In this document: piece after piece, positions 28,524 to 32,358 of the stretch | Layout: the number at the start of each line of letters is the position of its first letter | How positions within the stretch are numbered: position 1 is the first letter of the stretch | Assembly: GCA_964610875.1 (NCBI GenBank) | Contig: CAZSWP010000008.1 | Location: 1 to 64,000, forward strand | DNA length: 64,000 bases | Origin: an uncultured archaeon | GTDB lineage: Archaea; Asgardarchaeota; Thorarchaeia; Thorarchaeales; Thorarchaeaceae | Direction: 5' to 3' | Notes under the pieces: model-generated | Databases searched by the model: none | The model's input: the letters and a program-made list of their open reading frames with translations, nothing else | Told to the model about the DNA's origin: nothing | Position numbers and translations under genes: made by a program

Positions 28524-29981
28524 ATGAGGGACCTAGTAGAGCTCGCTCTAGAAGAATGTGTAAAGCATGGTGCGACTTATTCTGATATGCGAATCGTAAC
28601 TATTCGTGATGAGGATATCTCCATCAAATCAGGAAATATTGAGACGATGCAACTCGGCCAAGAAGTGGGATTTGGGATTCGATGTATAGCAGATGGCGGC
28701 TGGGGCTTTGCAGGCTCATTTGATATTGCAAAATATGAAATTAAACGCGTTGCAGAACTTGCAGTTAGAATAGGCAAAGCTTCTGGTTCAACTCGTAAGC
28801 AACCTATTGAACTAGTTGATGAAAAGGCAATTGAGGATTCATACAGCACGAAGTTCAAGAAGGATCCCTTCAAAGTTCCTGCAGAGGAGAAGCTCGAAGT
28901 ATTGGTGGAGGCCGATAAAAGACTTCGAGAGTATGATAATGCAATCAAAGTAACAACTGCTGATTATCATGGTCATTCTGAGGAAAAAATATTCAGTAGT
29001 TCTGAAGGTGCGTATATCACTCAGAAAATCATCTGGTGTGGAGGTGGATTTTCCTGCCTTGCTGCATCGGCAGGATCTCGTCCACAAAGAAGGTCATATC
29101 CAGGGTCCTTTCGTGGAGATTTCTCCACCAGTGGATATGAGTTCTTTGAATCACGAGAGATTCTTGAAAATGTGGATCGAATTGCCTCAGAAGCAATAGA
29201 TCTCACGAAAGCAAAACAATGCCCCTCTGAAAAGACTACGCTATTAATTGATGGTCACCAGTTGATGTTACAGATCCATGAGAGTTGTGGTCATCCAACT
29301 GAATTAGATAGAGTCCTAGGAACAGAGGCAGCATATGCTGGTACTAGTTTCATGACCACTGACAAGCTCGATAAACTCAAGTATGGAAGCAAAGATGTTA
29401 CACTTGTTGCTGATTCCACATTAGAAGGTGGTCTTGGTACTTTTGGGTACGATGACGAAGGTGTCAAGGCAAAACGTGTTGAACTCGTTAAGAATGGTCT
29501 CTTCGTTGGATATCAGAGTTCCCGGGAGACTGCAGCACTTATTGGTCTCTCTAAGAGTTCTGGTGGGATGCGAGCAGATAGCCCACAAAAACTCCCTCTA
29601 ATACGAATGGTGAATATCAACCTTGAACCCACTGATTGGAAACGTGATGACATAATTGCTGACACAAAGAAAGGTATTCTCATGTCTACAAACAAGAGCT
29701 GGAGTATTGATGATAAACGTTTGAACTTCCAATTTGGGACAGAGATTGCTTGGGAGATTGTGGATGGGGAAATTGGTAAGATTCTCAAGAATCCTACATA
29801 TACGGGAATTACACCTGAGTTTTGGGGAGGTATGGATGCATCCTCAAAGGACGATTGGAGATTGTGGGGAACACCGAATTGTGGGAAGGGACAGCCTGGA
29901 CAAGTGATGTATGTTGGACATGGATGTGGAACTGCTAGGTTCCAGAATGTACGAGTTGGAATAATGAAGGAGGGCAATTAA
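28524..29981 (+). CDS. tldD: TldD family metalloprotease subunit
   Basis: GFGIR, HESCGHPTELDR (HExxGH), YDDEG, RM.NI, NCGKGQP. Confidence 0.93.
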   Translation: MRDLVELALEECVKHGATYSDMRIVTIRDEDISIKSGNIETMQLGQEVGFGIRCIADGGWGFAGSFDIAKYEIKRVAELAVRIGKASGSTRKQPIELVDEKAIEDSYSTKFKKDPFKVPAEEKLEVLVEADKRLREYDNAIKVTTADYHGHSEEKIFSSSEGAYITQKIIWCGGGFSCLAASAGSRPQRRSYPGSFRGDFSTSGYEFFESREILENVDRIASEAIDLTKAKQCPSEKTTLLIDGHQLMLQIHESCGHPTELDRVLGTEAAYAGTSFMTTDKLDKLKYGSKDVTLVADSTLEGGLGTFGYDDEGVKAKRVELVKNGLFVGYQSSRETAALIGLSKSSGGMRADSPQKLPLIRMVNINLEPTDWKRDDIIADTKKGILMSTNKSWSIDDKRLNFQFGTEIAWEIVDGEIGKILKNPTYTGITPEFWGGMDASSKDDWRLWGTPNCGKGQPGQVMYVGHGCGTARFQNVRVGIMKEGN

Positions 29982-29982
29982 G

Positions 29983-31365
29983 ATGAAATCACAAAGAGAG
30001 ATATTGCTAGAAAAAGCTAAACTGGTCATCAAGGAAGCTGAGAAAGCGGGTGCCACTCAAACACAAGCCAGTGTGAAACTCATTGACCTCAAACTAACAA
30101 GACTAGCAAATAGCATCATTGATCAAAACGTTGCAGAACGTCATGCAAAAGTCAAAGCTATTTTGTATTTTGGACAACAGAAAGGTTCTGTTGAGTATGA
30201 AGTCTTTCAAGATACTGAAATCAGAAACCTCGTTCAGATGGCTGCAAAGATTGCCAAGATTTCCCCAAAGAACGCAGACTTTGAGTCCCTACCAACACCA
30301 AAGCCTTACTCATCTCAGCTAGATGCTAGTGTTCTGACTAGCAAGAACACATTGAATGTGACTCCTGAAATGCGGGCTGAGGCTGCTTTAGAAGCAATCA
30401 AATCAGCACATAATGTCGATGATAGAATATCTGCGGTTGCTGGGGCAATATATCATTCAACTACTGAACATGTGATTTGTAATTCATTAGGAATCGAAGC
30501 TTACGAAATGCGTACCAGTAGCGAGATAGAGATAACAACCCTTGCAACTGATGGGAGTGAAGAAACGGCAGGATGGGCTTGTGATTCAAGCAGAGATTTC
30601 AATGATTTGAAAATATCTGATGTAGCAAGAGTAGCAGCTGAAAAGGCTGCAAATGGATTTGGAATGAAAGATCTAGAACCTGGAGAATATGAAGTAGTTC
30701 TTGAACCAGCTGCTGTAGCAGGTCTTATGCTCTATATCAGTTATACTGCCTTTGGAGCTAAACAGTATCAGGAATACATGAGTTTTCTCCGTGATCGTCT
30801 TGGAGAGAAAATGTTCTCTGAAAAACTCTCTATGTATGATAATGCACTTGATACGAGATTGGTTCATGCTTCCCGGTTTGATGAAGAGGGCGTTCCCCAT
30901 CAAAAAGTGGATTTGATAGTGGATGGAGTAGTTATGGGACTTGTCTACGATTCATTAACAGCAACTAAGGACGGTGTTGAAAGCACAGGAAATCACGCTC
31001 AGGTCTGGGGTCCGCCAAGACCAATGGCCAGACACTTGATTGTAAATAGTGGTAATTCATCAGTTGATGAAATGATTGAAGAAACTGAGAAGGGTGTGCT
31101 TGTAACGCATTTCCATTACATGAACCCTGTAAACCCAACTGAAGGAGTCTATACAGGATTGACAAGAGATGGTGCATGGTATATAGAAAATGGGGAAATC
31201 CAATATCCATTAAGGACATTGAGATTCACTGATGCTGCTCCTAGATTCTTCAATGAAATCGATATCATTGGTGAATATCCGGAATTTAGAAGTCAACCAC
31301 CATTTGGCTTGATGCCTTCGATGAAACTGCCTTCATTCAGATTCTCAGGTTCAAGCAAACATTAA
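29983..31365 (+). CDS. pmbA: TldE/PmbA family protein
   Basis: TRLANS, PGEYEVVLEPAAV, FDEEG, STGNH, TGLTRDG; lacks HExxH; adjacent to tldD. Confidence 0.9.
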   Translation: MKSQREILLEKAKLVIKEAEKAGATQTQASVKLIDLKLTRLANSIIDQNVAERHAKVKAILYFGQQKGSVEYEVFQDTEIRNLVQMAAKIAKISPKNADFESLPTPKPYSSQLDASVLTSKNTLNVTPEMRAEAALEAIKSAHNVDDRISAVAGAIYHSTTEHVICNSLGIEAYEMRTSSEIEITTLATDGSEETAGWACDSSRDFNDLKISDVARVAAEKAANGFGMKDLEPGEYEVVLEPAAVAGLMLYISYTAFGAKQYQEYMSFLRDRLGEKMFSEKLSMYDNALDTRLVHASRFDEEGVPHQKVDLIVDGVVMGLVYDSLTATKDGVESTGNHAQVWGPPRPMARHLIVNSGNSSVDEMIEETEKGVLVTHFHYMNPVNPTEGVYTGLTRDGAWYIENGEIQYPLRTLRFTDAAPRFFNEIDIIGEYPEFRSQPPFGLMPSMKLPSFRFSGSSKH

Positions 31366-31490
31366 TCGAACCGAATCACAAGAAACATGTACCGTCGAGT
31401 GTGATCAGGAAGGTCAGCAATAGCAGCACAGACCAGAAACCTCTTACTCACATCGATTCCGCAATATTTTAGTGGTTTCTTCACAGTCAT
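31362..31490 (-). pseudogene. Truncated IS110-family transposase N-terminus (42 aa)
   Basis: Not in the ORF track. GAGGGT then MTVKKPLKYCGIDVSKRFLVCAAI..., matching the IS110 RuvC-like first motif GIDxxK; stop after 42 codons. Confidence 0.65.
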
Positions 31491-31511
31491 ACTAATGACC
31501 CTCGGTTCGTT

Positions 31512-31669
31512 AGGACTGTGGACGATCGGGAGTGACAATTTTCAATACGTGCTCAAGGACACAGGTAGATTACTTCGTCGGGTCGTCCAGGGTCATTTTG
31601 TCCACCATCATCATGGTGATAAATCTAGACTCGACCCGCATAGTCCTGTACCATTCAGACTCTGGTACA
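31512..31669 (+). ncRNA. Bridge/seek-RNA-like structure next to the IS110 remnant
   Basis: 9-bp closing stem 31512-31520/31639-31647 enclosing two arms, each with a large internal loop and a capping hairpin; extra hairpin 31647-31668. Confidence 0.5.
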
Positions 31670-31890
31670 CTCTCATATCTTTTGTCTAGCTTACAATGAA
31701 TGGTCCTAACTAAAACATGGACACCTTCTGTAGGACCAACAGAAGGTTTTCTGCATTGCCAATGCCCTCCGGAACTAATCTGCTTGGTTTCTTAATCTCA
31801 TATCTCTGTTCGATTACTGTATACTCTTTTCGATTATCTCGATTACATCATACTTGGAAAGATATGTAACCAATGTGTCTGCTGTTGACT

Positions 31891-32358
31891 TTAAGAACAA
31901 TCAATTTTATCGACTTCACCTTGGCAAATCTTCTTGTCTTGGTCATCCTTTACTGCATCAGTTGCTTTCTGTGCAAGTTGTTTGTATTTCTTACATGATT
32001 CGGAATCACCATTTGCTGCATGAGCTTTGGCAAGAACTTCGTAAGCGAAAGCCAGGTCGAAATCTCCAATTCCTGTTTTTTCAGTGATTTTCAAACAGAG
32101 TTCGGCATGATGGGCCGCTCTTGATCCTTCACCCATTGCACTATATACTCTAGCTATCATATATTCTGCTCTTGCTATATTAATTGGTTCACCTATCTTT
32201 GACCAATGATAGTGAGAGGTATGTGCCATATGCAAGGCTTGATCCAATTCATCTTGACTAGGACTGTCTTTATCCAACGTGGGCCATACACTGTTGTTTG
32301 TCTGAATGGCTATTTTCTTGTGGAACTCATCTAGAGTCATCTTTTCAGCATTTGACAT
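31891..32358 (-). CDS. Conserved helical (TPR-like) hypothetical protein
   Basis: FH...A...NN.VW, AH.S.YHW, AEY.IARVY, DFDLAFAYE.LA.A. Confidence 0.8.
   Translation of the reverse strand: MSNAEKMTLDEFHKKIAIQTNNSVWPTLDKDSPSQDELDQALHMAHTSHYHWSKIGEPINIARAEYMIARVYSAMGEGSRAAHHAELCLKITEKTGIGDFDLAFAYEVLAKAHAANGDSESCKKYKQLAQKATDAVKDDQDKKICQGEVDKIDCS

What the first reader, a model, noticed from the sequence alone, without database searches (positions are those of the whole stretch)
31362..31750. IS110 relic with an intact bridge-RNA-like structure
Seen: an unannotated minus-strand 42-aa ORF with its own SD and YCGIDVSKRFLVC. Directly upstream, the + strand folds into a closing stem (31512-31520/31639-31647) carrying two arms. 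Arm 1: stems 31521-31535/31570-31587, internal loop CAATTTTCAATAC/AGGTAGA, cap GTGCTCAAGGACAC. Arm 2: GGGTC/GACCC, internal loop ATTTTGTC/ATAAATCTAGACTC, cap CACCAT/ATGGTG. Further hairpins lie at 31647-31668 and 31722-31747. Established: IS110-family recombinases use a non-coding-end RNA whose two internal loops specify target and donor DNA. Inference: an archaeal bridge RNA, oriented opposite to the transposase, left behind by a deleted or non-autonomous element and possibly usable in trans.
Basis: partly seen in the sequence, partly recalled or inferred. Interest (0 to 1): 0.75.

Follow-up and report, generated by a model that had tools for sequence, protein, structure and literature searches.

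The report
Truncated IS110 stub keeping bridge RNA
This is the broken-off left end of a known kind of RNA-guided jumping gene (IS110 family) in an Asgard archaeon: it keeps the guide ("bridge") RNA, whose loop matches a site in another transposon's end repeat, but it has lost almost all of its enzyme gene, so it is most likely an ordinary decayed copy.

Summary
Observation confirmed; interpretation partly supported. Window 31389-31683 (minus strand) is the left end of an IS110-family element. It holds the core AA, the left end, a two-loop bridge RNA, an SD-like site and 34 codons of the transposase; the rest and the right end are deleted. Relatives are Thorarchaeota IS110 recombinases.

The first loop's two guides predict the target GGTGGAC-AA-ATCTAGAC. 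The best matches among 651,650 genomic AA sites are right ends of IS607 mini-elements, which is where this stub sits. Guides track both flanks across about 20 related elements, including a set fetched after the register was fixed.

The functional RNA is most likely on the transposase strand, not the + strand. Only there do both guides end in the core, followed by a handshake dinucleotide, with the target loop first, as in IS621. Folding energy alone slightly favours +. The hairpin at 31722-31747 lies outside the element.

Use in trans is unsupported: no cross-targeted junction was found, stubs are common, and expression could not be tested. The scan has already reported this family elsewhere, including what is probably the intact copy in this genome.

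The parts
31684..31704 (+). Outer 21 bp of the right end of an IS607-derived mini-element (the host repeat); 31684-31690 is the left half of the IS110 target
   Evidence: Matches more than 50 other copies of this end in the genome. The same end closes an 8.6-kb IS607 element with serine TnpA and a 731-aa ORF at C18:16148-24729.
31682..31683 (-). Recombination core dinucleotide AA (left junction of the IS110)
   Evidence: Filled versus empty sites for the intact C2/C15 relative; the same junction, letter for letter, in full-length element L146.
31670..31677 (-). Left subterminal inverted repeat half (TATGAGAG); its partner in the right end is lost
   Evidence: Full-length relatives carry CAC(T/A)CATA just inside the right end.
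31648..31668 (-). 5' hairpin of the non-coding left end; sequence is variable, and a hairpin is seen by eye only in the closest subgroup
   Evidence: Sequence; homologue left ends. Not formally tested.
31512..31647 (-). Bridge RNA body: 6-bp outer stem (31642-31647 with 31512-31517) enclosing the target loop and then the donor loop
   Evidence: Conserved stems with compensatory changes in 13-24 homologues; covariance model R1 finds 24 matches in 14 of 86 family genomes.
31590..31637 (-).
   Evidence: Guides covary with insertion flanks.
31621..31630 (-). 5' guide: 8 nt plus UU, complementary to core plus right flank; predicts AA-ATCTAGAC
   Evidence: Empty repeat ends read AA-ATCTGGAC (7 of 8 plus one U.G wobble); L146 has this right flank.
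31596..31606 (-). 3' guide: 7 nt identical to the left flank, core AA, and a 2-nt handshake guide matching the first two bases of the element
   Evidence: 5 of 7 identical to this copy's own flank plus one wobble; handshake bases match in all 13 first-set elements that keep them and 21 of 22 positions in the new set.
31520..31588 (-).
   Evidence: A 3-4 nt motif on the 5' side covaries with the element's first bases; invariant GAAA on the 3' side matches the right end plus core. Weaker than the target loop.
31497..31503 (-). SD-like sequence before the transposase start
   Evidence: Sequence; similar purine-rich motif at the same place in relatives.
31389..31490 (-). First 34 codons of an IS110 (DEDD) recombinase, including the first catalytic Asp in GID; pseudogene fragment
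   Evidence: 52-69% identical to N-termini of full-length PF01548 + PF02371 proteins; Pfam alone does not score the short peptide.
31362..31388 (-). Unrelated DNA read through after the deletion breakpoint (last 8 codons and stop), touching the pmbA stop codon
   Evidence: No similarity to the transposases, to other genome repeats, or (by eye) to the 3' flanks of pmbA relatives.
31722..31747 (+). 9-bp hairpin followed by TTTT on +; outside the element, probably a host terminator between the converging pmbA and TPR genes
   Evidence: Lies beyond the IS607 end at 31704. It did not pass the strict terminator scan, so the function is inferred.

Best explanation
A Thorarchaeota IS110-family element inserted, guided by its bridge RNA, at the AA core 21 bp inside the right end of an IS607-derived mini-element. 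A later deletion removed the transposase after codon 34, the right end and the rest of the host mini-element. In the intact element the RNA is read on the transposase strand from the left end: first the target loop (5' guide pairs with core plus right flank, 3' guide pairs with left flank plus core and carries a 2-nt handshake), then the donor loop, which reads the joined element ends. Shown by comparison: element boundary, core, target identity, guide-flank covariation, conserved stems, truncation. Inferred: strand, donor pairing, expression and the catalytic mechanism (from IS621). The window copy is an immobile, slightly decayed stub.
For: Intact relative split over C2 and C15 with filled and empty sites. 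Left-flank guide permutation p = 3e-5, handshake p = 1e-4. In the independently fetched set: right flank p = 1e-5 (12 elements), left flank p = 1e-5 (11), swapped-guide control p = 0.75. The window's guides rank IS607 right ends at the top genome-wide (8 of 8 sites at 17.5/19, 5 of 6 at 17). Full-length L146 has the same left junction and the right flank that dominates the empty sites. Relatives are named Thorarchaeota IS110 transposases, score over the NF033542 cut-off and match IS621 in the PDB. For strand: core at the 3' end of each guide, handshake 3' of the second guide and target loop first match IS621 (PMC11208160, PMC11208158); guide mismatches are G.U-type on the minus strand 26 times against 7 on the plus strand. 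Decay: C.A mismatch in the donor stem, a changed base in the IS607 end. About 11 of the 24 model hits in the family are deleted stubs.
Against: Stems do not tell the strand (14 G.U against 16 A.C cells), and the + strand has the lower folding energy in 18 of 24 homologues and the better z-score in 12 of 19. The elements fall into about four related subgroups, so permutation p-values and wobble counts overstate independence. The right-flank score allowed two registers and a one-base shift (applied equally in the permutations). Donor-loop pairing is only 3-5 matching bases on the variable side. No empty syntenic pmbA-TPR site was found, so the deletion cannot be dated or its far end checked.
Confidence: 0.85

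Rival explanations
1. The stub is immobile, but its bridge RNA is still made (for example by read-through from the co-oriented TPR gene) and is loaded in trans by the intact C2/C15 recombinase, giving that element a second target specificity.
For: The scaffold is nearly whole; the donor-loop 3' side and the first bases of the left end are the same as in the C2 copy; at least 13 well-matching free targets exist. Read-through makes IS621 bridge RNA from integrated copies, and action in trans was not excluded there (PMC13626964).
Against: All three assembled junctions of the C2-type element lie at its own target, none at the window-type target (the assembly collapses repeats, so others may be missing). 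The intact recombinase is only 54-65% identical to the window-type protein. The stub shows decay, has no right end to form a junction promoter, and nothing shows it is conserved at this locus in relatives.
Confidence: 0.1
2. One reading: the functional bridge RNA is the + strand, antisense to the transposase, with the donor loop first.
For: The + strand folds somewhat better in most homologues; the copy-specific change in the donor stem is a U.G pair on + but a C.A mismatch on minus.
Against: It would put the core at the 5' end of both guides and the handshake on the wrong side, the mirror of the IS621 structures; guide mismatches favour the minus strand 26:7. From my own knowledge, characterised bridge and seek RNAs are co-oriented with the recombinase gene. 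Any + strand RNA here is more simply read-through from tldD-pmbA.
Confidence: 0.04
3. A purpose-built non-autonomous mini-element (RNA-only module, like the ssr9 module of ISPpu9) that is mobilised as a unit.
For: Such modules exist in the IS110 family (PMC12288879).
Against: No right end in the window; single copy in the genome; stubs in relatives break at different places.
Confidence: 0.01

Closest known systems
IS621 / ISCro4 bridge recombinase systems (IS110 group; PMC11208160, PMC11208158; PDB 8wt6, 9t56)
   Same: DEDD + Transposase_20 recombinase; RNA in the long left end upstream of the gene; variable target loop followed by conserved donor loop; 2-nt core read by both guides; handshake dinucleotide; target is a repeated element.
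   Different: Core AA rather than CT; both target guides 7-8 nt; the recombination sites are inverted relative to the gene (5' guide reads the right flank); an outer stem closes both arms; 8-bp subterminal repeats; about 430-aa protein with only weak similarity to IS621 (E = 1e-10); archaeal host; this copy is truncated.
IS1111-group elements and their seekRNAs (ISEc11, ISKpn4, ISPa11, IS4321/IS5075; PMC11187229)
   Same: [quoted passage not shown]
   Different: Non-coding region is upstream, not downstream, of the gene (an exception the paper already notes, e.g. ISMtsp17); repeats are 8 bp rather than the usual 11-13; group membership by phylogeny was not tested.
ISPpu9 with its ssr9 module (PMC12288879)
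   Same: IS110-family RNA sequence found apart from a transposase gene.
   Different: ssr9 has both end boxes, is multicopy and circularises; the window stub has one end, one copy and a fragment of the gene.

Membership tests
IS110 family (bridge recombinase elements) | [quoted passage not shown] | tested here: met
   Met by the full-length relatives. The window keeps only 34 codons, 52-69% identical to their N-termini, too short to score in Pfam.
IS110 family (bridge recombinase elements) | Short core shared by target and element junctions, no target duplication beyond it | tested here: met
   AA core from filled and empty sites; some relatives show AA on the left and AG on the right.
IS110 family (bridge recombinase elements) | Structured RNA sequence in a long non-coding end, with two internal loops | tested here: met
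IS110 family (bridge recombinase elements) | Target-loop guides match and covary with both flanks | tested here: met
   related elements, so p-values overstate.
IS110 family (bridge recombinase elements) | Donor-loop guides match the circle junction | tested here: inconclusive
   3-5 of 6 bases on the variable side, permutation p = 1e-4 but only four or five distinct variants; the other side is invariant.
IS110 family (bridge recombinase elements) | Handshake dinucleotide 3' of the second target guide | tested here: met
   Matches the element's first two bases in three variants, AA, AG and CG.
IS110 family (bridge recombinase elements) | RNA is expressed, binds the recombinase and directs recombination; circular intermediate | not testable with these tools
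Autonomous or mobilisable IS110 copy (this locus) | Both ends present around an intact gene or cargo | tested here: not met
   No right end; gene broken after codon 34.
IS1111 group | Subterminal inverted repeats (7-17 bp) | tested here: met
   8-bp repeat in full-length relatives, imperfect in the window's subgroup.
IS1111 group | Top-strand complement precedes bottom-strand match | tested here: met
   On the minus-strand reading.
IS1111 group | Long non-coding region downstream of the gene | tested here: not met
   About 190 bp upstream, at most about 60 bp downstream.
IS1111 group | Transposase falls in the IS1111 clade | not tested
   No curated reference set; plasmid hits are at most about 33% identical over most of the length and mostly unnamed.

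The most novel reading that the evidence does not exclude
The orphan bridge RNA is still expressed and is used in trans by the intact IS110 recombinase of the same genome, acting as a natural second guide that sends that element to a different site in the IS607 end repeats.
Probability: 0.1. Interest if true: 0.6.

Novelty: new member of a known kind. Interest (0 to 1): 0.27.

Why it matters
The stub itself is ordinary decay. The family behind it is a well-supported Asgard-archaeal set of bridge recombinases with naturally reprogrammed guides, long guides on both sides, an AA core and a mixed layout (IS110-type position, IS1111-type guide order and repeats). It offers ready test cases for archaeal bridge recombination and shows one mobile element aiming at the ends of another. 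I found no paper on Asgard bridge RNAs in the library searched, but the mechanism is the one described in 2024.

Tried and rejected
Pfam on the 42-aa and 34-aa peptide: no hit; identity came from homologues. Rfam: nothing meaningful. Single-sequence folding: not significant on either strand. Stem G.U versus A.C polarity and folding energy as strand tests: uninformative or slightly for +, so the strand call rests on guide geometry. Searches of metagenome and genome contigs by peptide pattern gave only distant relatives or the query. Search for an empty syntenic site: no pmbA within 1.5 kb of any of 29 TPR homologues, and pmbA flanks are unrelated by eye. Placing the transposase in IS110 versus IS1111 through plasmid hits: inconclusive. 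Sigma-70 promoter scan is not suited to archaea. One script failed part-way and one query had wrong coordinates; both were redone. Rejected: the ORF as a real small protein (transposase fragment plus read-through); hairpin 31722-31747 as part of the RNA; the stub as a mobile mini-element.

Full report
Observation. The region lies between converging genes: tldD-pmbA on + (28524-31365) and a TPR protein on minus (31891-32358). The + strand fold alone is unremarkable (z = -1.64; minus strand -0.82), Rfam has no match and Pfam does not score the peptide, so the case had to be made by comparison.

The peptide is an IS110 fragment. The genome holds one related region at the end of contig C2 (69% identity). 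It continues into a transposase whose remainder is at the end of C15, with a 55-base overlap, 432 aa in all, carrying PF01548 and PF02371. Relatives in the same archaeal family and in metagenomes are 49-70% identical to the closest full-length protein, three are named Thorarchaeota IS110 transposases, they pass the NF033542 cut-off, and they match IS621 and ISCro4 in the PDB. The window matches full-length element L146 at 90 of the first 101 coding bases and then stops matching. So codons 1-34 (31389-31490) are transposase and the last eight are read-through. No right end follows.

Boundaries and target. The intact C2/C15 copy sits in a multicopy repeat whose empty copies define an AA core and the target GGTGTCC-AA-GTTTGT. 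The window copy starts with the same first bases, at core 31682-31683. Its flank 31684-31704 is the outer end of the same repeat family, present in more than 50 copies of 181-221 bp where both ends were found. One end of the repeat lies about 70 bp before IS607 serine-recombinase genes, and the other closes an 8.6-kb IS607 element at C18:16148-24729. The host is therefore a gene-less IS607 derivative, and the stub sits in its right end. The hairpin at 31722-31747 is outside both elements.

The RNA. Across 13 homologues four helices keep 89.6% of cells paired, 10 of 20 pairs have two-sided changes, and slid controls give 25-48%. In 24 hand-registered copies 609 of 648 stem cells are Watson-Crick (two of the five stems were registered by best match, which inflates this). 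Read on the transposase strand, the first arm holds a 5' guide complementary to core plus right flank and a 3' guide identical to left flank plus core, followed by two bases that match the element's own first two bases. The 3' guide tracks the left flank (permutation p = 3e-5) and the two extra bases track the element start (p = 1e-4). In elements fetched afterwards the same register gave p = 1e-5 for each flank and p = 0.75 for a swapped control. These elements form about four related subgroups, so the p-values overstate independence, but the guides change with the targets within subgroups as well. The window's own guides predict GGTGGAC-AA-ATCTAGAC. Of 651,650 AA-core sites in the genome, all 8 top-scoring sites and 5 of the next 6 are IS607 right ends, and L146 has the window's left junction with right flank ATCTGGAC. 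The second arm is more conserved; a 3-4 base motif on its 5' side changes with the element's start, and its 3' side carries an invariant GAAA matching the right end and core. This donor evidence is weaker.

Strand. In IS621 both target guides end in the core, the handshake guide lies 3' of the second guide, and the variable target loop precedes the conserved donor loop (PMC11208160, PMC11208158). The minus strand reproduces all three; the + strand gives the mirror image. Mismatches between guide and flank are G.U-compatible on the minus strand 26 times and on the plus strand 7 times. I put the minus strand at about 95%.

Mechanism and history. Inferred from IS621: the excised circle joins the two ends around AA, the RNA is read from the left end, and the recombinase pairs the target loop with the IS607 end and the donor loop with the circle junction. 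At this locus an insertion was followed by a deletion running from codon 34 through the right end and the rest of the host repeat. The copy shows mild decay: a C.A mismatch in a donor stem that is otherwise nearly always paired, and one changed base in the IS607 end. The covariance model finds only this copy and the C2 copy in the genome, and about 11 of 24 hits in the family are deleted stubs with different breakpoints. The search selects for copies that keep the RNA, so this says nothing about selection to keep it.

Use in trans. Possible in principle: read-through makes IS621 bridge RNA from integrated copies (PMC13626964), and the donor side resembles that of the C2 copy. But the three assembled junctions of the C2-type element are all at its own site, the two recombinase types are only 54-65% identical, and the stub cannot form a junction promoter. 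I give it 10%.

Comparison. It works like IS621 and belongs to the IS110 family by every sequence feature that could be tested in full-length relatives; the donor loop is inconclusive and activity untested. The layout is mixed: RNA upstream of the gene as in the IS110 group, but guide order and 8-bp subterminal repeats as in the IS1111 group. Such exceptions are already noted (PMC11187229). I found no paper on Asgard bridge RNAs. The scan's own notes, consulted after my analysis, already describe this family and its IS607-end target in other genomes, and a copy before an IS110 recombinase in this genome, probably the C2 copy; these are unchecked notes, not independent evidence.

Verdict. Real feature; new member of a known kind; this copy is a truncated stub. 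Interest 0.27.

Noticed in passing
L014:1500-1650 and L110 (minus strand, model hit): Two stubs keep only the left end and the target loop, then pass exactly at the core of the 3' guide into right-flank sequence (clearly the IS607 target half in L014). This suggests the DNA encoding the guide, which mimics the left junction, can itself be used as a recombination site.
   Followed up: partly
G000 IS607 mini-element right ends (e.g. C2:44218, C9:76261); L143, L017: Three IS110 subgroups aim at the same IS607 repeat: two at sites 2 bp apart in opposite orientations, and a third about 30 bp further in.
   Followed up: partly
L144:1-2420: A relative is inserted inside a tnpB gene (OrfB_IS605 before, Cas12f1-like zinc finger after), and its 5' guide matches the right flank at 7 of 8 bases.
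   Followed up: partly
G000:C18:16148-24729 (L076): An 8.6-kb IS607 element with a 206-aa serine TnpA and a 731-aa ORF ending in a TnpB-like zinc-finger motif, with exact ends matching the mini-elements; earlier scan notes cover it.
   Followed up: partly
G000:C61:13134-13561: A second copy of the C2/C15-type element at another site, with an internal deletion of about 670 bp in the transposase (or an assembly artefact at the contig end).
   Followed up: no
L122, L123, L144 junctions: Left junction core AA but right junction core AG; in L122 the 5' guide matches AG, so the second core base can differ between donor and target.
   Followed up: partly
window 31596-31630: Because the target is a near-direct repeat, the two target guides of this subgroup are partly complementary to each other and could close the loop when no DNA is bound.
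   Followed up: no
L026, L027, L140, L142 right junctions: Several right junctions have one more A in the run around the core than others, so the position of the right cut or the end length varies by one base.
   Followed up: no
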